DNA from: an uncultured Verrucomicrobiae bacterium
Lineage (GTDB): Bacteria > Verrucomicrobiota > Verrucomicrobiia > Chthoniobacterales > JAFAMB01
Assembly (NCBI GenBank): GCA_963762565.1
Contig: CAVXLD010000005.1
Coordinates: forward strand, 96,001-160,000
DNA length: 64,000 nt
Direction: 5' to 3'
Shown: positions 76 through 63,902 of the stretch, one piece after another
How the letters are laid out: each line of letters opens with the position of its first letter
How positions within the stretch are numbered: the first letter of the stretch is position 1
The notes under the pieces: generated by a model
The model's input: only the letters and a program-made list of their open reading frames with translations
Told to the model about the DNA's origin: nothing
The model's database searches: none
Program-made: the position numbers and the translations under genes

Positions 76-483
76 ATGAACGAACCCACGCCCCAACCTG
101 AAGGCGAACCGATGATCCGCGCGATCGCGATGCCGGCTGACTCGAATCCTTCGGGGGACATATTCGGCGGCTGGTTAATGTCGCAGATGGATTTGGCAGC
201 GGCCAACGCCGCTTGCCGCCGTTCGCGCGGACGTTGTGTAACCGTTGCCGTCGACGGCATGGTTTTTCATGAACCCGTATTTATCGGGGATGAAGTCAGC
301 CTTTATTGTACCGTGATCCGGGTTGGCAGGACATCGATGACCATCCGAGTGGAGGCCTGGCGGCGCAGCCGGACAAGTGAGGCTCGGACCAAAGTCACAG
401 AGGCCCTCTTTACCTATGTCGCCGTTGACGAGAACAGGAGGCCGAGGGCGGTGCCGGCAGAGGCAGAGGTGAAAGGTGATTAG
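76..483 (+). CDS. yciA: acyl-CoA thioesterase (hotdog fold, YciA family)
   Basis: Motif AMPADSNPSGDIFGGWLMSQMDLAA...VTVAVD..F..PV.IGD. Confidence 0.9.
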   Translation: MNEPTPQPEGEPMIRAIAMPADSNPSGDIFGGWLMSQMDLAAANAACRRSRGRCVTVAVDGMVFHEPVFIGDEVSLYCTVIRVGRTSMTIRVEAWRRSRTSEARTKVTEALFTYVAVDENRRPRAVPAEAEVKGD

Positions 484-628
484 TGATTGGTGATTGGTAG
501 TAGGAGGGTCAGAAGGTTTTCGAGGATTGCGATGATGTGCGCATATGATGAGCGCTCCGATTCTGTCGCGCCTTGGCCACCAATTACTTTTATTATTCAC
601 CAATCACCAATCACCAATCACTTCTCAC
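468..628. repeat. cassette bounded by inverted heptamer arrays (GTGATTG)n ... (CAATCAC)n
   Basis: 468-497 ggtgaaaggtgattagtgattggtgattgg; 597-628 tcaccaatcaccaatcaccaatcacttctcac; both flanking stop codons lie in the arrays. Confidence 0.9.
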
Positions 629-1419: not shown

Positions 1420-2060
1420 GAGTTTGGATTGATTGGCTCAGCAAGTTTAGCTTCAAGAGTCTTAATGACGGCTGCCGCTCCGCCGCGCCGTACCAGGTCG
1501 TCGAATTGAGCCCGGTAATTAGCCACGAAGCTCACCCCCTCGATAAGAACGTCATAGATACGCCAGCCACCAGAGAGATTGACCAGGCGATAGACGACCG
1601 AGAACGGTTTATCGCTGCTGGGGGAGGTAACCCGAGTTGTAATTTCGCATCGGTCCGGCGCCAGCGAGACGCTTTTACCATAAGTGATGTTCGGTTTTTG
1701 CGTCCCAACTACCCGAGCAGCGTAGATCCGGATCACGAGCCGGCTGAAGAGGTCGATTGTTTTTTGTTGATCGGTGGGACTGAACTGTCTCCAGGCAGGT
1801 CCGATGGCTTGGCGAGTCACGAGCTCGAACGAAAAGTCTTTCTCCAACAACGGTCGAGCTCGGTCAGCAAGCGCCTCGCTACTCTGACCGGAGTAAGCGA
1901 GAGCCAAAACTTGGTCGACCTCGCTGTGAAGCTGGGATACCGGATCGGGCGGGGCAGCGGCGAATGACAGATGACAGATGACAAATGACAGATTTATAAC
2001 CGCGATGGGACGCCTGCATCGACGGAGGCGATGGCCGATTTGGCCTATAAAGCTCCTCAT
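1416..2060 (-). CDS. mlaC: MlaC/Ttg2D phospholipid-binding protein (start at 2060 or 2105)
   Basis: GWRIYDVLIEGVSFVANYRAQF motif; position in mla operon; overlaps the mlaA start. Confidence 0.88.
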   Translation of the reverse strand: MRSFIGQIGHRLRRCRRPIAVINLSFVICHLSFAAAPPDPVSQLHSEVDQVLALAYSGQSSEALADRARPLLEKDFSFELVTRQAIGPAWRQFSPTDQQKTIDLFSRLVIRIYAARVVGTQKPNITYGKSVSLAPDRCEITTRVTSPSSDKPFSVVYRLVNLSGGWRIYDVLIEGVSFVANYRAQFDDLVRRGGAAAVIKTLEAKLAEPINPNS

Positions 2061-4817: not shown

Positions 4818-6263
4818 TTACACCGACACCCCCATATGCCCGCCTGCCGATGCGCTCTCCCGAAGCCCTTTGTTGACCATCGTGAACGGGCTAGGTCCGG
4901 ACACAAGCCCGCGGCGTTGCTGCCTTACATTGTGAGCATCAGCTAACGCAAGATCGAAGCGGGATAGAATGGTGCTCAGCACCAATTTCATTTCGAATTG
5001 GGCGAATGCCATACCGATGCAACGGCGAACGCCGCCGCCAAATGGCAAGAATTCATAGGGCGAATAATGCTGGTCGAGAAATCGATCCGGATTGAATTCT
5101 TCGGGGTCAGGAAAGGCTTCTTTTCGGCGATGAGCTAAATAAATGCAGCCGGCTACCAAGGTGCCTGGATCGAGCGTCACTCCGGCTAAATTAACGCGTG
5201 ACCTGGTAACGCGCGGAAAGGTTAGCAGGGCAACCGGGTAGATGCGCAGGGTCTCAGAGCAAACCGCGTTAAGGTAAGGCAGCTTGAGAAGAGCATTGGG
5301 ATCGAAGTTGCGATCCAGCGCGTCGAGTTCCTGCAACAAGCGCAGACGTATTTTGGGCAACCGATGAATCCAATACAATGCCCAGGTTAACGCGGTAGCG
5401 GTGGTTTCGTGGCCAGCGATTAAAAGGGTCATCAATTCATCGCGCAGCTCGACATCCGATAATGCTTCACCTGCTTCATCGCGGGCAGACATCAGCAGCG
5501 TCAGAATATCGTCGCGTTCAGGATTGGGGTTGAGACCGCCCTCACTTCCGCCATGGGTGGCTACGCCTTCGGCCTCGCAAGCGAGGCGCGCTCCACGCCG
5601 GTCGGCGATTTCGGCATAAATCAATTGATCAATTTGTTGCCGGTTACGGATGAATCGCCCCCAAGGACTATGCGGCCCAAGATCTCGCCGTAGACTCGGC
5701 ACAAATAAAATACTCGCGCTCAATGGACTGCTGACGCGACCCAACAAGGTTCCCAGACGTTGTTCGAGTTGTTGATATCGAGGTCCATCGGTTATTCCGA
5801 ACACCGCCCGCAGGATGATCCGCAGCGAGATCGTTTGCATCGGGCGCCGGGCCGGGAAAGCGTGACCCGGCTCGTGCTCGCGCATCACTTGTTCAGCGGT
5901 GTCGCAGATGAGGTCTCCGTAAGATCGCATCCGTTCCCCGTGAAACGGCGGCATCAATAAACGGCGTGCCCGCCGGTGGTCTTCACCGCTCAATCCGAAT
6001 ACCGATAGCTTTCCGGTGATCAACTCGAGAGCAATATTCAACCCTCCAGGAGCGTCGAACAGCTTGCCGTCATCATTCGTCAAAATCAGCTGCATTGCTT
6101 CCGGATCGCTGAACAACACCAGGGGCCCGAATTTTGGGTTCAGCCGAAAGGTGAAAGTGTCTCCATACCGCCGATGACAGCTCCGCATAAACGAAAAAGG
6201 TGTCGTCACCCATTGGAGCATCTGCAGGGCGCTCGGAGTTTTTGGTCCCTCAGGAAGTGCCAT
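4818..6263 (-). CDS. cytochrome P450 (resembles CYP110-type) with an in-frame REP insertion
   Basis: AGHETTATAL I-helix, ETLR ExxR motif, FNPDRF, FGGGVRRCIG heme-Cys motif. Confidence 0.95.
   Translation of the reverse strand: MALPEGPKTPSALQMLQWVTTPFSFMRSCHRRYGDTFTFRLNPKFGPLVLFSDPEAMQLILTNDDGKLFDAPGGLNIALELITGKLSVFGLSGEDHRRARRLLMPPFHGERMRSYGDLICDTAEQVMREHEPGHAFPARRPMQTISLRIILRAVFGITDGPRYQQLEQRLGTLLGRVSSPLSASILFVPSLRRDLGPHSPWGRFIRNRQQIDQLIYAEIADRRGARLACEAEGVATHGGSEGGLNPNPERDDILTLLMSARDEAGEALSDVELRDELMTLLIAGHETTATALTWALYWIHRLPKIRLRLLQELDALDRNFDPNALLKLPYLNAVCSETLRIYPVALLTFPRVTRSRVNLAGVTLDPGTLVAGCIYLAHRRKEAFPDPEEFNPDRFLDQHYSPYEFLPFGGGVRRCIGMAFAQFEMKLVLSTILSRFDLALADAHNVRQQRRGLVSGPSPFTMVNKGLRESASAGGHMGVSV
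5571..5596 (-). repeat. REP-like element GTGG-AG-CGC-GCCTCGC-TT-GCGAGGC-C (other copies 8146, 9337, 46090/46132/46174, 56333)
   Basis: Identical 26-mer ggcctcgcaagcgaggcgcgctccac at six sites, plus a diverged inverted copy at 56333-56358. Confidence 0.88.
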
Positions 6264-6488: not shown

Positions 6489-6807
6489 GATGTTACACGC
6501 TGGGGCTCCGCGGGAGGGTTGGAGATGCTTTCAGGGGCTTCGCCCACTTCGATCAACCCAGGGGCTCAAGCCATGGGCTATGGTCTATAGCCGCCTCGCG
6601 GCAGCTAGTCGCTCGGGTCGAAACGAATCGTGAGCAGTACCCATGAATCCAAATCGAAATAAGATTCGACCTGGTCTGGCGGCCATTTCGCATTCGGTTT
6701 GAAGACCAACATGAAGCCGCCCGTGCCAGAATCGAGTGTCGCGCATTCAGCGCCGACACGCCGACACGCCCCTCCTAGCTCCTAGATTCTAGCTCCTAGC
6801 TCCTGTT

Positions 6808-7161
6808 TTATTGAGCCAACGCACTATCATCCAAGTACCATTTGGTACCTTGCATGGGACCAAAGGTCTCCATTTTCACCTTCAACTGATGTCTGGCTGT
6901 GTTGTAGCTGAGGATCTTGACCTTGAGAGGCTTGTCGAATTGGAATGCATTTCGCTTCTTTAGCTCTTTTTGCTGGTATTCTGCCTGCGCGTCTGGTTTG
7001 CCGCTTGCCTTGAGCTGTTGCCATTTACTCAGTTTGGCGTCGTCCTGAAACCAAATGGAGTTAGGGGGCACTTGCACCGTGGCGCCCTTTTGGATTCCTT
7101 GAGCAAAGGAAGCGACGGCCAGAGCGAAGAACAGAGTGAGTATGCTGAGCGATGATTTCAT
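6808..7161 (-). CDS. hypothetical secreted protein
   Basis: Signal-peptide-like N-terminus MKSSLSILTLFFALAVASFA; coherent ORF. Confidence 0.7.
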   Translation of the reverse strand: MKSSLSILTLFFALAVASFAQGIQKGATVQVPPNSIWFQDDAKLSKWQQLKASGKPDAQAEYQQKELKKRNAFQFDKPLKVKILSYNTARHQLKVKMETFGPMQGTKWYLDDSALAQ

Positions 7162-7206
7162 GCGGGGCACCGTAATCGATCAATGGCGCCCGTGGCGATG
7201 CTAAAG

Positions 7207-7360
7207 GAGGAGCTAGGAGCTAGAATCTAGGAGCTAGGAGAGGCGGGTTCACATGGGTCCCATTCGGTCGCAGCGTCCAACGCGCCCGAGCACTGGACAC
7301 GCTCGTAGGCCGAATCGTTCGCCCCCTCCTAGCTCCTAGATTCTAGCTCCTAGCTCCTCC
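7207..7360. repeat. cassette bounded by inverted aggagctaggagctagaatctaggagctaggag arrays
   Basis: Near-perfect inverted pair 7209-7241 / 7326-7358; the same motif occurs at ~6773, 21579, 57494, 59357. Confidence 0.9.
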
Positions 7361-7361
7361 T

Positions 7362-7781
7362 CTATTTTTCCACAAACATCAGATCCGAGATCATCGTGTG
7401 CTTAACGTAGGTATCCATATAGGTGTTGTGCAGCATCCTGATCTTCTGGCCGTGCGCCAAGAGCTTGTAAGCGGCGCCGCTATCAATGGCTTTATAATTC
7501 TGATAAAATTTTGTCTTGGGATAAACGATCACCGTGATCTGATTTCCGTTATCGAGCTCCAAAATTATACTGAACCACCCCGTGTTTCCCGGTTTAACGG
7601 ATTCAATCATTCCATCCAGCTCGACGTTTTGCCCTTGCTGATTCCGATTCTGGGCCGCGTTGCGCCGGATAATGTCAGCGGGATCGCTTAGATCGGTCGC
7701 ACGGAGATTGGGGAGACAACATTCAATTGAAATCAATAAGATTGATAGGCCTATCAAGCCGATAGTTTTGATCTGTTTCAT
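7362..7781 (-). CDS. hypothetical exported protein (possible small beta-barrel/OB-like domain)
   Basis: Hydrophobic N-terminus; beta-strand-rich body. Confidence 0.65.
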   Translation of the reverse strand: MKQIKTIGLIGLSILLISIECCLPNLRATDLSDPADIIRRNAAQNRNQQGQNVELDGMIESVKPGNTGWFSIILELDNGNQITVIVYPKTKFYQNYKAIDSGAAYKLLAHGQKIRMLHNTYMDTYVKHTMISDLMFVEK

Positions 7782-13293: not shown

Positions 13294-13389
13294 CGCTTCG
13301 CGCATAGCCGAGCGAAGCGCATGACAGATTACAAATGACAGATGACAGATCGGATCTGGGCGAGGCAGGGCGAGCAATCGTTCTCGGGG

Positions 13390-17732: not shown

Positions 17733-18082
17733 GGAGCTAGGAGCTAGGAGCTAGGAGAGGCGCCACGCCTCAATATTTGAATAGCCGCAAAACCTGTCGC
17801 GCCGAAGGCTTGGCGAAGGCGGAAAGGCGCAAAAGGCACAAAAAGAAAGCAAAACTCAACCGCAGCCCCGATATTCTCCGGGGTGAAATTAACGCAGATA
17901 AAATCTCAAGAGCAGCGTTTTGATTTTACGACTCTTTATCTGCGTCTCTCTGTGTTCATCTGCGGTTAAGCCTTTTTGTGCTTCGGTGGCTTTGTGTGAG
18001 GTTTTCTTTGCGTTCCTTGCGTTCTTTCGCGGCTAATTATTTGTCCCCCCTTTTGCGGCTTTTGCGGCTTTTCGCGGCTATT
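17733..18082. repeat. composite nested cassette (ggagcta, gccgcaaaa and cgcagat arrays plus inserted hairpins)
   Basis: atagccgcaaaa... inverted to ...ttttcgcggctat; aaccgcag...cgcagataaa inverted to tttatctgcg...ctgcggtt. Confidence 0.8.
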
Positions 18083-22790: not shown

Positions 22791-22956
22791 GAGGCGGCGC
22801 TTCGCGAATAGCCGATAGCCGAGCGAAGCGCATAACAGATGACAAATGACAAATGACAGATTCGACCTGTGCGTGGCAGACGGCAATTGGGGCGCCGCAT
22901 ACCGATCCGAGTTGCCATCGGCTATCGGCTATTGGCTATTGGTCATGCGCGAAGCG

Positions 22957-25576: not shown

Positions 25577-26398
25577 ATGGATCAGAACCCCTCATTGCGA
25601 ATTGCATTCAGTACTTTGGCGTTCACGGATCGGAACCTGGAGGCGGCGATCTCGCTTGGCAGCTCGCTAGGCTACGCTGGTGTCGAGCTGCGGGTCATTG
25701 ACGGAAAACTATTTGATTCTTCCTTGTCCGCCGTCGACCGCGCACGCGTTAAGCAGACGGTTGCGGCCGCTCGTTTGCCGATTGTGGCGGTCGGTAGCTC
25801 GGTCGTTCTCACCAAAGAAGAACCTGGTCCTGAACTGCGCCGAATGCTCGAGCTCACGAACGAATGGGAATCGCCGTTTATCCGCGTCTATGGCGGTCAG
25901 TTATCCGAAGATTCTGCGACTCGCCAAAAGCAGATGGAGTCGGCGGTTAAAGTGTTGGAGGAAGCGATCCCGATCGCCGAACGCCTTGGTGTGGTTATGC
26001 TGATCGAGACGCATGATGGCTTTTCCGCTTCTTCGGTGACGGCGGAACTCCTGGCCAAGGTTCCATCAAAATGGGTCGGCGCCATATGGGATAGTCTTCA
26101 CCCACATCGGATGGGGGAAACACCCACTGAAGTTTACCAGAACATTGGTGCTCGAACTTTTCACGTCCACATTAAGGATGGCCGGCGTTCAGCGGCACAC
26201 AAAGGCGGTTGGCAACTCGTGCCGTTAGGTGAAGGAGAGGTACCGGTTCCGGAAGTGATCCAATTGCTGGTTGCCGGTGGTTACAAAGGTTTTCTCACGG
26301 TCGAGTGGGAAAAATATTGGCACCCTGAGATCGAAGCGGCTGAAGTGGCTCTTCCACATGAGTTGAAGGTGCTGCAGGGCCTTGTGAATAGCCGATAG
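25577..26398 (+). CDS. sugar phosphate isomerase/epimerase (TIM barrel)
   Basis: GYAGVELR; IETHD; WD..H; HVHIKD; GEGEVP; VEWE. Confidence 0.88.
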   Translation: MDQNPSLRIAFSTLAFTDRNLEAAISLGSSLGYAGVELRVIDGKLFDSSLSAVDRARVKQTVAAARLPIVAVGSSVVLTKEEPGPELRRMLELTNEWESPFIRVYGGQLSEDSATRQKQMESAVKVLEEAIPIAERLGVVMLIETHDGFSASSVTAELLAKVPSKWVGAIWDSLHPHRMGETPTEVYQNIGARTFHVHIKDGRRSAAHKGGWQLVPLGEGEVPVPEVIQLLVAGGYKGFLTVEWEKYWHPEIEAAEVALPHELKVLQGLVNSR

Positions 26399-26413
26399 CC
26401 GATAGCCAAGAGG

Positions 26414-26602
26414 AGAGCCTCGCGCAGAGGACGCGAAGGACGCAACGGATTGTCTATTAACGGGGTTCAACCGGGAGGTTGGCCAGTCGTTTAATACCGT
26501 TTTTAAGATGTTCCTCGCCGAGATTGATCAGGTATCCGAGGACTCAATCCAGATTCTTCCTTGTCTTTCGTTGCGTCCTTTGCGTCCTTTGCGCGAGGCT
26601 CT
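26414..26602. mobile_element. cassette with 34-bp terminal inverted repeats made of GGACGCAAA-type 9-mers
   Basis: 26414-26447 versus 26569-26602, 2 mismatches. Confidence 0.88.
26457..26540 (-). pseudogene. C-terminal remnant of a GxxExxY (PD-(D/E)XK-like) protein
   Basis: Translates LGYLINLGEEHLKNGIKRLANLPVEPR*, preceded across a 1-nt shift by SGLS; matches my recollection of the GxxExxY C-terminal consensus (..GL.LG.LINF....LK.GIKR..N). Confidence 0.7.
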
Positions 26603-26614
26603 GACTTTTCGCAG

Positions 26615-27256
26615 CTATTCCTTCTTCTCGCTGTCCTTCTTTGCTTTCTCCTCGTAGTTTTGCATTAGTTTTTCCGAGGCTTGACGGGCGGCGGCGCGGA
26701 GAAGCATTTCTTGTTCGTCCGGGTTGTTACGAAGGTCTTCGGGTAGGATCGCCGGTAAACTCTTATCGTCACTCTTAATGACTGCTTCGTGTGACCACAG
26801 CGTTTTGTCATCCGGTGTAACCAGTTCGGCGTATAGGGTCATCAGCGGGCGCACTTGGCGTGACACTATCTCCGCCATACCGAAGCCGTATTTGCGTACA
26901 GCCAGACGAAACCGGTCATCTGTCGTACTGTTGTCCTCCGGGGTAAAACCTTTGCTGCGGATGACATCGGAGAATTCTTCATGAACAAAGACGGCGAGCG
27001 GCGTCAGGTTACGGCGTTGGCTGGTCGCGTCATGAACATACTTTTTGACAGCACCTCTGGTCGCCACTGAGGCTGCCAGCCCCATCGAAGCTGCGAGTTC
27101 TATCGATTGGGACAAGCCGATGAACGTCATTTTTTCAGGGTACGGAATGGACTGGTCGACCTGAACAGGGCCGGGAGAAAGAGCACTGGCCGAAATTGAC
27201 TCCAACATCGCGGCACAGATAGCCAAACACAACGCTAAACGATAGGCACAACTCAT
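26615..27256 (-). CDS. hypothetical exported protein
   Basis: Signal-peptide-like N-terminus; 213-aa ORF. Confidence 0.65.
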   Translation of the reverse strand: MSCAYRLALCLAICAAMLESISASALSPGPVQVDQSIPYPEKMTFIGLSQSIELAASMGLAASVATRGAVKKYVHDATSQRRNLTPLAVFVHEEFSDVIRSKGFTPEDNSTTDDRFRLAVRKYGFGMAEIVSRQVRPLMTLYAELVTPDDKTLWSHEAVIKSDDKSLPAILPEDLRNNPDEQEMLLRAAARQASEKLMQNYEEKAKKDSEKKE

Positions 27257-36256: not shown

Positions 36257-36496
36257 CGAGGCTCCTTGGGGGGTTAAGGGGTTGGGGCGAAGGTGAATGG
36301 TACGATGGGGGCATGACAAATGACAAATGACAAATGACAGAACGGGGAAGAGCGGCGCCGGAAGAAAAATTCTCACGCAAGGACCCAGCCCGCAACGCTT
36401 CGCGTAGCGATGCGGGCGTGGCGCAAAGGCGCAAAGGGAAGACGAATCCGGAAAAGCTGCGAGAGAGCGCAGAGAAACACTAGCGTTGTGTAAAAA

Positions 36497-44996: not shown

Positions 44997-46222
44997 AGGA
45001 AGACGTCCATTTGGTTTTTGCGGCGAAGAACCCGGACTGCACCTAAACAAACTGCGGCGAGCAGGATGAGACCTTGAAACAAGGGTTGCCAAAGGGCGGG
45101 AGCGTTAAACACGAAGAGAAGATCGCTAATGATGCGCAGAACGAGAGCACCACAGATCGAGCCGATGAAACCGCCTGAGCCGCCGAATAACGAAGTACCA
45201 CCGATGGCAACGGCAGCGATCGAATTCAGTGTGTAAAAGCCGCCTTGGCTGGAGCTGGCTTCACCGGAGAGCGAGATCAGCGATAGTAAGAGACCGCCGC
45301 ACGCAGCTAATAAACCGGCTAAAGCATAGGCAGCGAACCGGGCGCGTCCGATCGCCAGGCCTGACATATAGGCAGCGCGTTCTGAGGATCCTACGGCGTA
45401 GCAGTTCCGGCCAACAGCGAGGTTACGGAACGGCCACCAGACGAAGAGAATGGTTCCGACTAACAAAAGGAAGGTCGAGGGGATCCCGAAAACATCATAG
45501 GTTAGTGCATTGCTGAAATCTTCGTTCACCTCGCCGCCTGGAGTGGGACGTAACAAAAGCGCGATCCCAAAGTAGATGGCGCCGGTGGCTAGAGTGGCGA
45601 TGATCGGTTGGATCCGGCCGATCACAACGATGGTCGCGTTGATCATACCGGCTAAGAGGCCGCTGGCCAAAATGGCGAGAGTAGCGAGCGCCGTTTGACC
45701 GGGTGACCCGTTCAGGATCACTGAAGCAAGACAGGAGGTCATCGTCATCACCATCCCGACGGATAAATCGAACCCGCCGGTCAGGATGACCAACGTTTGC
45801 GCCATGGCGACGTAGGCTAAGACGACGCCTTTGTTAGAGACCGAAGTTAAGACATTGGTGGATAGGCCGTTTGCCTGTTGGGAAGCGAACAGGATGAACA
45901 TCACGGCGAACACAAAGAAACTGAGCAGCGGGCCGGCGTTCCGTTTCCAAAACCGGGACCACGAATGGACGCCTTCGCCAGCTACGGCGCGACAGGCTAC
46001 GAATGGGCGGGAATGACTCTGCGGCGGAGGTTGTTGGCGGAGCGGTTTCGGTTGTGTGAGCGGGGGCGGTCGGTGGTTCCGACCGAGTCGGCCTCGCAAG
46101 CGAGGCGCGCTCCACGGGTGGCGACCCCTCCGGCCTCGCAAGCGAGGCGCGCTCCACGGGTGGCGACCCCTCCGGCCTCGCAAGCGAGGCGCGCTCCACG
46201 GGTGGCGACCCCTCGTGGTCAT
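44993..46222 (-). CDS. monosaccharide ABC transporter permease with repeat-derived N-terminus
   Basis: TGGFDLSVG; AVGSSERAAYMSG; IAAVAIGGTSL.GG.G. Confidence 0.88.
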   Translation of the reverse strand: MTTRGRHPWSAPRLRGRRGRHPWSAPRLRGRRGRHPWSAPRLRGRLGRNHRPPPLTQPKPLRQQPPPQSHSRPFVACRAVAGEGVHSWSRFWKRNAGPLLSFFVFAVMFILFASQQANGLSTNVLTSVSNKGVVLAYVAMAQTLVILTGGFDLSVGMVMTMTSCLASVILNGSPGQTALATLAILASGLLAGMINATIVVIGRIQPIIATLATGAIYFGIALLLRPTPGGEVNEDFSNALTYDVFGIPSTFLLLVGTILFVWWPFRNLAVGRNCYAVGSSERAAYMSGLAIGRARFAAYALAGLLAACGGLLLSLISLSGEASSSQGGFYTLNSIAAVAIGGTSLFGGSGGFIGSICGALVLRIISDLLFVFNAPALWQPLFQGLILLAAVCLGAVRVLRRKNQMDVFL

Positions 46223-63468: not shown

Positions 63469-63902
63469 TTCACCACAGAGACACAGAGGACACCGAGAAA
63501 AGACTCGAACCGCAGATGGACGCAGATTTACGCAGATAAAGACAGGAGCCTGACTGAGGCAGGGGTTGAACGCACTCCTTCTGCCGGCAGCACATTGAGA
63601 TTTGGAATATCCGCAGATTACACAGATTACGCAGATTTCGCCTTTAGGCTTGGGCACGTCACTTTAGATAAAAAAAAGTTCTGACTCGGTTACGCTTTCG
63701 GTAGCCCAAGGACTGATCCGAAGCCCACGACGAAATCTGCGAAATCTGTGTAATCTGCGGATATTAACGTTTTCCAGAATGTTGCCAGCCCATGACGCGT
63801 CTCTCAACGTCAGCTGCGATCTGCTCCCAGTCTCCATCTGCGTAAATCTGCGTCCATCTGCGGTTGAGGTTTTCTCTGTGTTCTCTGTGTCTCTGTGGTG
63901 AA
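63469..63902. mobile_element. three concentric cassettes with microsatellite-built TIRs
   Basis: 63469-63501/63870-63902 (2 mismatches), 63508-63537/63836-63865 (perfect), 63606-63640/63731-63765 (1 mismatch). Confidence 0.9.

What the first reader, a model, noticed from the sequence alone, without database searches (positions are those of the whole stretch)
26414..26602. Fossil GxxExxY nuclease fragment inside a repeat-bounded cassette
Seen: between 34-bp inverted repeats the minus strand reads SGLS/(shift)/LGYLINLGEEHLKNGIKRLANLPVEPR**, too short for the ORF track. Knowledge (from memory): GxxExxY proteins (TIGR04256, PDDEXK_3-like, ~130 aa) end in ..GL.LG.LINF....LK.GIKR..N. Inference: an internally deleted derivative of a GxxExxY gene cassette. 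This is the best evidence that the empty cassettes descend from nuclease-carrying mobile units, as MITEs descend from IS elements.
Basis: partly seen in the sequence, partly recalled or inferred. Interest (0 to 1): 0.85.

Follow-up and report, generated by a model that had tools for sequence, protein, structure and literature searches.

The report
Relic nuclease gene inside hairpin cassette
A 189-base hairpin between two ordinary genes still holds the last 30 or so codons of a small GxxExxY nuclease gene, so this near-empty hairpin once carried the gene that intact cassettes of the same design carry in many other bacteria.

Summary
Arms 26414-26447 and 26569-26602 are 34 nt long and 94% complementary. 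The minus strand reads VLGYLINLGEEHLKNGIKRLANLPVEPR**.

Public family libraries do not report the 28-aa peptide. Profiles I built from unrelated full-length GxxExxY proteins rank it first among 2331 six-frame window peptides: 15.8 bits, E=0.002, next hit E=13, aligned to profile positions 100-120 of 121. No reversed or shuffled control reaches that score.

A genome scan with the arm 20-mer returned 123 loci from many phyla. All 5 GxxExxY genes in them lie next to the repeat. All four arm pairs 361-700 nt apart enclose one, with the stop codon a few bases before the 3' arm, as here.

Of four plasmid genes chosen by protein similarity alone, three are enclosed by arms of 9-nt units and one abuts such a hairpin.

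The feature is a dead, 5'-deleted GxxExxY cassette. The wider claim, that empty hairpins in general descend from such cassettes, rests on this one relic. The source genome's own intact copies could not be examined.

The parts
26569..26602 (.). Arm lying 5' of the relic in the relic's (minus-strand) orientation. On that strand it reads AGAGCCTCGCGC AAAGGACGC AAAGGACGC AACG.
   Evidence: pair I11. The exact 20-mer also occurs in 123 loci of other genomes.
26544..26568 (-). Purine-rich junction (AAAGACAAGGAAGAATCTGGATTGA). It is probably the leftover leader of the cassette joined to the deletion end-point.
   Evidence: Full cassettes have a purine-rich leader directly after the 5' arm: L036 AAGGAAGAGGAGGAAGG, L071 GGAAAAACTTGGAAGAGGAAAG, L004 AAGAAGGAAAAGGAAAC. 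This is resemblance only, so the reading is an inference.
26542..26556 (-). Frame-shifted piece reading ESGLS. It extends the match three to four profile positions upstream across a 1-nt frame break.
   Evidence: Reading through with X at the break raises the score from 15.8 to 18.6 bits and moves the match to profile positions 96-120 of 121. The gain is small.
26460..26543 (-). In-frame relic of the GxxExxY C-terminus: 28 codons, VLGYLINLGEEHLKNGIKRLANLPVEPR.
   Evidence: Searches give the reading. Profile scores are 14.4 to 15.8 bits with E=0.002 to 0.005 in the window. It hits 223 of 274 GxxExxY proteins by blastp-short, always at their C-termini.
26454..26459 (-). Tandem stop codons TAA TAG, 6 nt before the 3' arm.
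   Evidence: The placement matches L036, L118 and L071, where the stop lies 5-9 nt before the arm.
26414..26447 (.). Arm lying 3' of the relic. On the plus strand it reads AGAGCCTCGCGC AGAGGACGC GAAGGACGC AACG. It differs from the other arm by two transitions.
   Evidence: pair I11.
26615..27256 (-). Upstream host gene (213 aa, no Pfam or NCBIfam match). It has the same orientation as the relic, and its stop lies 12 nt before the cassette.
25577..26398 (+). Convergent host gene (xylose isomerase-like TIM barrel). Its stop lies 15 nt from the cassette.
   Evidence: PF01261, E=1e-30.

Best explanation
This is the decayed remnant of a GxxExxY cassette. An intact cassette is a small selfish-looking unit. 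Two inverted arms made of tandem 9-nt units enclose a short purine-rich leader and a gene of about 125 codons for a PD-(D/E)XK nuclease, whose stop codon lies a few bases before the 3' arm.

In the window copy about 300 nt are missing, from the start codon to about codon 95. A 1-nt frame break follows the junction. What remains is both arms, a leader-like stretch, the last 28-32 codons and the stop.

None of the residues that define the family survive: the GxxExxY motif and the D...ExK catalytic residues are gone. The relic therefore encodes nothing. Only the 34-bp stem can still act.

Shown here: the homology of the peptide; the shared architecture; and an arms-plus-gene unit that is present between fabD and fabG in one Sphingomonas and absent in another.

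Inferred: the deletion happened in place. The cassette is read as part of the upstream gene's transcript, since intact cassettes are co-oriented with their neighbours. The stem is cut by RNase III as in 23S rRNA intervening sequences. The nuclease drives spread of the unit.
For: Homology:
- A seed profile of 4 full-length genes from other phyla gives 5 full-length hits in 40,051 six-frame peptides. The window peptide is next, at 14.4 bits, on profile positions 100-118 of 121.
- In the window alone (2331 peptides) it is the top hit with all three profiles, with E=0.0046, 0.0035 and 0.0019.
- Reversed and shuffled controls reach at most 12.7 bits.
- By blastp-short it hits 223 of 274 family proteins, ending a median of 4 residues from their C-termini. 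The best matches are 57-62% identical over 21-23 residues without gaps.
- It keeps 5 of the 6 invariant or nearly invariant columns in its span (G, L, N, G, R), with F changed to L.

Same cassette elsewhere:
- All 5 GxxExxY genes found in the 123 loci (1.29 Mb) lie within the 10% of that sequence that is within 600 nt of the arm 20-mer. The chance of this is about 1e-5.
- The 4 arm pairs spaced 361-700 nt all enclose a gene scoring 130-139 bits on TIGR04256 (L004, L036, L118) or E=1e-39 on the seed profile (L071).
- The stop-to-arm distance is 5-9 nt there and 6 nt here.

Independent sample: 4 plasmid genes were picked by protein similarity only. Three are enclosed by 25-30-nt arms of 9-nt units spaced 387-412 nt. 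The fourth abuts a 32-nt-arm hairpin.

Insertion: fabD-[arms+gene]-fabG in S. parapaucimobilis against fabD-fabG in S. paeninsulae, where the matched span is 1699 nt against 2159 nt.

The family is a real nuclease fold. AF2 gives pLDDT 96.6, and the best PDB neighbours are Cas4 SSO0001 and lambda exonuclease, with TM about 0.5. D, E and K are invariant or nearly invariant in 100 sequences.
Against: - The curated models TIGR04256 and PF13366 report nothing for the peptide even at E<=10. The match is only 20-25 residues and 15-19 bits, so it rests on a small search space plus context.
- The arms of the comparison loci share the 20-mer by construction of the scan.
- No intact GxxExxY gene lies in the window, and the source genome could not be searched.
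- The ESGLS extension adds only 1.5-2.8 bits.
- An in-place deletion cannot be told from a copy that was truncated on arrival.
- Nothing here shows RNase III cutting, nuclease activity or mobility. Arm mismatches show no bias towards G-U pairs on the sense strand: 5 G-U, 5 A-C and 5 other in 7 cassettes.
Confidence: 0.8

Rival explanations
1. Chance resemblance. The 28 codons are an accidental open frame in a hairpin loop that happens to look like the family's C-terminus.
For: hmmscan against NCBIfam and Pfam reports nothing at E<=10. The match is short. One of 20 shuffled sets reached 12.7 bits.
Against: E=0.002-0.005 in the window with three independent profiles, and the next hit has E=13. 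0 of 20 shuffles and the reversed set reach 15.8 bits. The match lies exactly at the profile's C-terminal end, with a stop and then the arm as in intact cassettes that have the same arms.
Confidence: 0.03
2. It is a relic, but not of a deletion in place. The copy arrived already 5'-truncated, through incomplete copying or template switching from the 3' arm inwards, so this site never held a working gene.
For: Only the 3' end of the gene survives, directly beside the 3' arm. No ancestor sequence is available to map deletion end-points.
Against: Both arms and a leader-like purine stretch after the 5' arm are present, which fits loss of an internal piece. No other truncated copy was seen among the 123 loci, so there is no sign of a process that commonly makes them.
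Confidence: 0.2
3. The hairpins come first. Tandem-repeat hairpins are host or self-propagating intergenic elements, and GxxExxY genes are guests that home into them. On this view empty hairpins are not degraded cassettes, and this relic only records one guest that came and decayed.
For: - 44 of 56 arm pairs in the loci are 130 nt or less apart and show no gene trace.
- 67 of 123 loci show the repeat with no inverted partner at all.
- Blocks of other tandem units stand in series without partners.
- One genome has a multi-copy empty family with conserved loop and flanks.
- Only 1 relic was found among 147 window loop peptides.
- Intergenic heptamer repeats are described without any nuclease link (PMC4692102, passages).
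Against: In Sphingomonas the arms are present with the gene and absent without it. Genes picked without regard to arms still have them. Predicted N-termini of family members often translate such arms: 16 of 97 with an extension of 7 or more residues.
Confidence: 0.35
4. The stem-loop is simply a host RNA element, such as a bidirectional terminator or stabiliser between convergent genes, and the coding remnant is irrelevant to what it does now.
For: It fills the spacer between two convergent genes and forms a very stable stem.
Against: No terminator-like site was found in 26200-26800. No T-run follows the stem on the minus strand. There is no Rfam family in the window. This rival concerns present function and does not contradict the origin.
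Confidence: 0.25

Closest known systems
GxxExxY protein family (NCBIfam TIGR04256; Pfam PF13366 PDDEXK_3)
   Same: The relic aligns to the last 20-25 positions of the family profile and keeps its LxN(F/L)...GIxR end.
   Different: It lacks about 95 of about 125 codons, including the GxxExxY motif and the D...ExK residues, and it is frame-broken. The family's function is listed as 'Unknown' in the 2012 survey of PD-(D/E)XK enzymes (PMC3424549, Table 1 row read).
23S rRNA intervening sequences with a small ORF (Coxiella burnetii IVS with the S23p ORF; also Leptospira and Salmonella)
   Same: Both have terminal inverted repeats forming a stem of about 28 bp, an AG-rich leader, tandem heptamer repeats before the ORF, and one small ORF in the loop that is decaying. 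The IVS is excised by RNase III and is called a selfish element of unknown mobility (PMC4990558, abstract and passages). Its heptamer GACAGAT also forms repeat blocks in this window (family D16).
   Different: The window element lies between protein genes, not in rRNA. Its cargo is a PD-(D/E)XK nuclease, not the four-helix-bundle S23p. RNase III cutting was not tested here.
MITEs as internally deleted IS elements
   Same: Inverted ends are kept, the internal gene is lost, and the relic marks the descent.
   Different: No target-site duplication is visible at the window cassette or at the Sphingomonas insertion. The arms are tandem 9-nt units that vary between cassettes. The nuclease is not a known transposase. 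Only one relic was found.
REPIN-RAYT systems
   Same: Many short hairpin-forming inverted doublets are dispersed between genes, and a few gene-carrying copies are flanked by the same repeat (PMC3116915; search listing and start of abstract only; the rest is recalled).
   Different: RAYT is an IS200/IS605-type tyrosine transposase present once per genome. Here the gene is a PD-(D/E)XK nuclease belonging to a family of 36,538 clusters.
Intergenic heptameric repeats of Xanthomonas and Nostoc, and cyanobacterial STRR sequences
   Same: Both are tandem 7-nt units close to ORF ends, sometimes paired as inverted repeats, in the same lineages that returned the arm 20-mer (PMC4692102, abstract and passages). 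STRR is recalled, not read.
   Different: That paper links them to G-quadruplexes. The word 'nuclease' does not occur in it.
Free-standing homing endonuclease genes (intronless homing in T-even phages; recalled, no paper read)
   Same: A small nuclease gene is wedged into tight spacers of conserved operons and co-oriented with its neighbours: fabD-fabG, radA, ade.
   Different: No cleavage site or homing has been shown for GxxExxY. Homing endonuclease genes do not carry long inverted arms.

Membership tests
GxxExxY protein (TIGR04256 / PF13366) | Whole-protein score above the curated cut-off (35 bits for TIGR04256, 22 bits for PF13366) | tested here: not met
   No hit at E<=10. My own profiles give 14.4-15.8 bits, or 18.6 bits read through. 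Intact relatives score 126-150 bits.
GxxExxY protein (TIGR04256 / PF13366) | GxxExxY motif near the N-terminus | tested here: not met
   No such motif occurs in any frame of the cassette. The region is deleted.
GxxExxY protein (TIGR04256 / PF13366) | PD-(D/E)XK catalytic D...ExK | tested here: not met
   D71, E81 and K83 of alignment A2 lie outside the surviving span, which covers profile positions 96-120.
GxxExxY protein (TIGR04256 / PF13366) | C-terminal LGxLxNF...GIxR block ending a few residues before the stop | tested here: met
   LGYLINL...NGIKR, then 9 residues and the stop. 223 of 274 family proteins match it at their C-termini.
GxxExxY cassette (architecture defined here) | Inverted arms of tandem 9-nt units enclosing the gene, with the stop a few nt before the 3' arm | tested here: met
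   Window arms are 34 nt with the stop 6 nt before the arm. The same layout holds in L036, L118, L071, L125, L126 and L127.
23S rRNA intervening sequence (IVS) | Terminal inverted repeats forming a long stem around a loop with a small ORF | tested here: met
   34-bp stem, z -7.6. The ORF is only a relic.
23S rRNA intervening sequence (IVS) | Location in helix 25 or 45 of 23S rRNA | tested here: not met
   It lies between two protein genes. No rRNA or other Rfam family is in the window.
23S rRNA intervening sequence (IVS) | Excision from the transcript by RNase III | not testable with these tools
   This needs RNA end mapping or an in vitro RNase III assay.
MITE | Terminal inverted repeats | tested here: met
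MITE | Target-site duplication flanking the element | tested here: not met
   The flanks AAGAGG and GACTTT are not direct repeats. None is seen at the Sphingomonas insertion, where the flanks instead extend the inverted repeat.
MITE | Many near-identical copies in the same genome | tested here: inconclusive
   In the window the 20-mer matches only the two arms, plus one 3-mismatch site at 18008. The rest of the genome was not available. A multi-copy empty family exists in another genome.
REPIN-RAYT | Associated IS200/IS605-type RAYT transposase | tested here: not met
   The associated gene is PF13366. No transposase domain appears among 50 window ORFs.

The most novel reading that the evidence does not exclude
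GxxExxY genes are the autonomous form of a very large class of hairpin elements that spans many phyla and resembles rRNA intervening sequences. Each is a PD-(D/E)XK nuclease gene carried in the loop of a long stem whose arms are tandem 7-9-nt repeats. The unit is tolerated inside operons because the stem lets the host cut it out of the transcript.

On this reading the abundant 'empty' tandem-repeat hairpins are its non-autonomous or decayed derivatives. These would include the hairpins that fill intergenic DNA in this genome, the heptamer repeats of cyanobacteria and Xanthomonadales, and possibly the ORF-less rRNA intervening sequences. They would be spread or maintained in trans by the nuclease, as REPINs are by RAYT. 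The window relic would be the first transitional form linking the two.
Probability: 0.3. Interest if true: 0.8.

Novelty: new variant of a known kind. Interest (0 to 1): 0.6.

Why it matters
The GxxExxY / PDDEXK_3 family is very large: 36,538 clusters at 50% identity with E<=0.001. It has no known function (PMC3424549). Short tandem-repeat hairpins crowd the intergenic DNA of this window and of many cyanobacteria, Xanthomonadales, PVC bacteria and Acidobacteriota, also without an accepted origin.

This relic, together with the intact cassettes found here, ties the two together. It turns a vague annotation into a testable model: a nuclease gene packaged in a stem that may be cut by RNase III, inserted within operons, and decaying to bare hairpins.

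It also suggests that 23S rRNA intervening sequences with small ORFs are one special case of a wider element class.

In seven literature searches no title or abstract start listed, and no passage I read, links GxxExxY genes to such repeats. Most of the papers those searches hold were not listed, and the curated family descriptions could not be read with these tools.

Tried and rejected
- hmmscan of the 28-aa peptide against NCBIfam and Pfam: nothing at E<=10.
- phmmer against PDB sequences: only two chance-level matches, a chain named E8 (8fje) and a flap endonuclease.
- tblastn of the peptide against plasmids: no match.
The peptide was therefore never searched against the large protein sets. 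Its relatives were reached through the arm DNA instead.
- A regex for G..E..Y found no intact gene in the window.
- The window's own contig was not among the scan's loci.
- Rfam at gathering threshold: 0 families in the window.
- Promoter and terminator scan of 26200-26800: none.
- Pfam scan of 147 of the 160 stop-to-stop peptides from the window's repeat regions, at E<=1: only chance-level hits (best E=0.017), and none to PF13366 or PF05635.
- Test for sense-strand G-U bias in arm mismatches: 5 G-U, 5 A-C and 5 other, so uninformative.
- Foldseek against the PDB found no close solved relative. 0 matches had E<=0.001, and the best were Cas4 and lambda exonuclease at TM 0.5.
- A cluster look-up to name the organism could not be made.
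- Considered and dropped: the plus-strand 83-aa open frame 26406-26654. Its only hit, Csa5 at E=0.017, is at chance level for 147 proteins against 24,736 models.

Full report
**1.

The window between 26414 and 26602 is a 189-nt inverted-repeat structure. The arms 26414-26447 and 26569-26602 are 34 nt long, 94% complementary and 121 nt apart (pair I11). Each arm is three 9-nt units of the type GGACGCAAA behind an outer AGAGCCTCGCGC.

Folded as one strand, 26405-26612 reaches -91 kcal/mol as RNA (z -7.6) and -54.7 kcal/mol as DNA (z -8.3). 0 of 200 shuffles do as well in either case.

On the minus strand, 26543-26460 reads VLGYLINLGEEHLKNGIKRLANLPVEPR, followed by TAA TAG. One frame over, 26556-26542 reads ESGLS. 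No start codon opens the frame.

The cassette fills the spacer between two convergent genes. One is a xylose-isomerase-like TIM-barrel gene ending at 26398. The other is an unassigned 213-aa gene on the minus strand ending at 26615. The relic has the orientation of the latter and starts 12 nt after its stop.

**2. Is the peptide GxxExxY-derived?**

The curated models say nothing: hmmscan against NCBIfam and Pfam gives no family at E<=10. The large protein searches refuse so short a query. I therefore reached relatives through the DNA.

In their six-frame translation a simple motif filter found four ORFs. These score 130.6-150.3 bits on TIGR04256 (cut-off 35) and 125.8-144.6 bits on PF13366 (cut-off 22).

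A profile of these four was searched without filters against all 40,051 six-frame peptides of the loci plus the window. It finds five full-length genes. The next hit is the window peptide at 14.4 bits, on profile positions 100-118 of 121.

Restricted to the window (2331 peptides), the peptide is the top hit with each of three profiles:

| Profile | Score | E-value |
|---|---|---|
| 4 sequences | 14.4 bits | 0.0046 |
| 125 sequences | 14.8 bits | 0.0035 |
| 169 domains from 150 cluster representatives | 15.8 bits | 0.0019 |

With the last profile the next hit has E=13.

- Controls: the reversed peptides reach 4.2 bits at best. Twenty shuffled sets reach 3.6-12.7 bits.
- Reading through the frame break with X raises the score to 18.6 bits, with the match on positions 96-120 of 121.
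- By blastp-short the peptide hits 223 of 274 family proteins, always at their C-termini (median 4 residues from the end). Identity is up to 57-62% over 21-23 ungapped residues.
- Of the six invariant or nearly invariant columns in its span, it keeps G, L, N, G and R and changes F to L.
- The family's GxxExxY motif and the D...ExK residues lie in the missing part.

So this is a dead fragment, not a short gene.

**3. Do intact genes carry the same flanks?**

Yes, in other genomes.

- All 5 GxxExxY genes in the 1.29 Mb of loci lie next to the 20-mer, although only 10% of that DNA is within 600 nt of a match. The chance of this is about 1e-5. Three pairs of loci overlap, so the total is slightly over-counted.
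- 56 of 123 loci show an inverted partner within 2 kb. Spacing is 130 nt or less in 44, 131-360 nt in 7, 361-700 nt in 4, and above 700 nt in 1.
- All four in the 361-700 class enclose a full gene: L118 Lysobacterales (404), L036 Nostoc (412), L071 Betaproteobacteria (489) and L004 Parachlamydiaceae (637, with a nested empty hairpin).
- The fifth gene (L037, Phycisphaerae) stands beside a run of hairpins.
- 43 of the 123 loci hold only 300 nt on each side, so wider pairs there would be missed.

In gene orientation the layout is always the same: 5' arm, a purine-rich leader, the ORF, the stop, 5-9 nt, then the 3' arm. The window has a 5' arm, 25 nt that are mostly purine, the last codons, the stop, 6 nt, then the 3' arm.

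These loci were selected by the arm sequence, so I took an independent sample. tblastn of the Nostoc protein against plasmids found 6 records, and I fetched 4 of them.

- Three genes are enclosed by inverted arms of 25-30 nt built of 9-nt units, spaced 387-412 nt:
  - Sphingomonas parapaucimobilis, between fabD and fabG.
  - Bernardetia, between ade and a mannose-1-phosphate guanylyltransferase gene.
  - Bacteroides finegoldii, between radA and an FAD protein gene.
- The fourth (Gemmatirosa) has a 32-nt-arm hairpin 22 nt after its stop.

S. paeninsulae has fabD and fabG adjacent without the unit. The matched span is 1699 nt against 2159 nt, at 72% identity in two pieces. The extra DNA in S. 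parapaucimobilis runs from one arm's outer end (TTCACGCGAAG...) to the other's (...CTTCGCGTGAA). At that divergence the ends are approximate.

Other observations on intact genes:
- They are co-oriented with the adjacent gene in 7 of 7 loci that can be judged. Three are annotated and four are judged by ORFs only.
- Predicted N-termini of family members often translate such arms (MNRQDAKNAK, TEGTEDTE, AEDAEDAE). This holds for 16 of 97 representatives with an extension of 7 or more residues.

The window holds none and its contig was not among the loci.

**4. What the family is**

- The family is very large. 8000 of 8000 scored candidates were significant in one search, and all 120 listed carry PF13366. 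A profile search found 36,538 clusters at 50% identity with E<=0.001, and 16,306 with E<=1e-10.
- A model of the Nostoc protein is confident (pLDDT 96.6, pTM 0.89).
- Its nearest solved folds are Cas4 SSO0001, lambda exonuclease, MGME1 and similar enzymes, at TM about 0.5. No match has E<=0.001. It is a minimal PD-(D/E)XK core without a close solved relative.
- 23 of the 150 best representatives are two-domain fusions with ordinary linkers. This fits a domain that works in pairs, but that is an inference.
- The 2012 survey of the superfamily lists PDDEXK_3 as 'Unknown', with multiple transfers (PMC3424549, table row read).

**5. How it most likely works**

Shown:
- A unit of arms plus nuclease gene recurs across phyla.
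- It sits in tight spacers of conserved operons.
- It is present in one Sphingomonas and absent in another.
- It occurs nested (L004; window 63469-63902).
- It coexists with many gene-less hairpins bearing the same arms.

Inferred:
- The unit is transcribed with its host genes, and the long stem is a substrate for RNase III. The insert would then be cut out of the message, as shown for the 23S rRNA intervening sequence of Coxiella. That element has a 28-bp terminal stem, an AG-rich leader, tandem GACAGAT heptamers, a small decaying ORF and proven RNase III excision (PMC4990558, abstract and passages).
- The nuclease promotes spread of the unit. Whether it does so by homing-like repair or by cutting at the arms cannot be said.

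The window copy lost about 300 nt from the start codon to about codon 95 and then, or before, acquired a 1-nt frame break. Only its stem can still matter. No terminator-like or promoter-like site is found there.

Arm mismatches in seven cassettes show no preference for G-U on the sense strand (5 G-U, 5 A-C, 5 other). The data therefore do not decide between RNA-level and DNA-level constraint.

**6. The wider claim**

The relic proves one such descent. Beyond that the evidence is thin.

- No other partial match appears at E<=10 in the loci.
- None of 147 loop peptides from the window's repeat regions matches any relevant family.
- 67 of 123 loci have the repeat with no inverted partner.
- Blocks of different tandem units stand in series in a Lysobacterales genome.
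- In a Rhodanobacteraceae genome the empty hairpins form a multi-copy family with its own conserved loop and flanks. This resembles REPIN-like propagation more than repeated gene loss.

I therefore rate the interpretation as partly supported. The view that hairpins come first stays as a live rival.

**7. Context and novelty**

The window is ordinary chromosome: the Mla operon, a P450, transporters and dehydrogenases. An ADOP-family permease scores 919 bits. From memory, that family is typical of Acidobacteriota. The organism was not identified, because the cluster look-up was not possible.

All 12 strict inverted pairs in the window are intergenic. They use several different repeat units.

Literature coverage:
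- 'GxxExxY' occurs in 3 papers. I read one passage, on a gene next to a reverse transcriptase, and saw one other in the listing only.
- PDDEXK_3, PF13366 or TIGR04256 occur in 2 papers.
- Searches on intervening-sequence proteins and on heptamer repeats brought up the IVS work and a study of G-rich heptamers in Xanthomonas and Nostoc. That study never mentions a nuclease.
- No title or abstract start listed, and no passage I read, links GxxExxY genes to tandem-repeat arms. Most of the papers these searches hold were not listed. Subscription papers and the curated family descriptions were not visible to me.

I call this a new variant of a known kind: an element resembling an intervening sequence or a MITE, with a PD-(D/E)XK cargo, seen here in a decayed state.

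Noticed in passing
window 63469-63902: Three nested inverted-repeat pairs, each with its own repeat unit. The outer arms (TTCACCACAGAGACACAGAGGACACC...) are nearly the same as the arms around the intact GxxExxY gene on a Bacteroides finegoldii plasmid (L127 1137-1166 / 1579-1608). No gene trace was found inside.
   Followed up: partly
window 1960-1994, 13317-13365, 22828-22862, 36309-36343: Blocks of the heptamer GACAGAT (written ATGACAG, family D16). The same heptamer is reported in tandem before the S23p ORF of the Coxiella 23S rRNA intervening sequence (PMC4990558).
   Followed up: no
window 26386-26410, with five further copies at 22795, 34462, 57445, 58303 and 62170: An (ATAGCCG)n block at gene ends. 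At 26386-26398 it supplies the last codons and the TAG stop of gene 25577-26398 (family D12).
   Followed up: no
window 6764-7248: A 120-aa ORF with a signal-peptide-like start (6808-7170, minus strand, no Pfam match) lies between CTAGCTC-type arms 391 nt apart, next to an empty hairpin of the same arms (7202-7364). It may be a different cargo, or simply a gene between two repeat-bearing spacers.
   Followed up: no
window 469-628, 1946-2130, 2707-2875: Hairpins with three different arm units stand in or next to the Mla operon: after mlaA, between mlaC and mlaD, and upstream of mlaD.
   Followed up: no
window 46075-46214: Three tandem copies of a 42-nt unit containing GGCCTCGCAAGCGAGGCGCGCTCCAC, inside overlapping ORFs of an ABC-transporter cluster. 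Further single copies lie at 5556 and 9322 (family D7).
   Followed up: no
L022 2820-3020 and L024 3900-4130 (Lysobacterales MAG): Three different tandem-repeat blocks stand in series, (GGGACTC)n, (GGACGCAAA)n and (CGTGCCCT)n, without an inverted partner. The same composite occurs in both orientations on two contigs.
   Followed up: no
L005, L021, L027, L044, L052, L054 (Rhodanobacteraceae MAG CALEZI01): Empty GGACGCAAA hairpins form a multi-copy family. The loop (GAGCCAAGAACC..GGTGTTGATGTTCTGCTGGCTTTG) and the flanks outside the arms are conserved.
   Followed up: partly
proteins P0121-P0137 and others: 23 of the 150 best GxxExxY representatives have two family domains in one chain, joined by 16-55 residues that do not look like translated arms.
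   Followed up: no
L071 5870-6010: The 3' end of the cassette (stop, short spacer, arm, then AAAGATTTTGA) is present twice about 100 nt apart, as if the 3' arm region had been duplicated.
   Followed up: no
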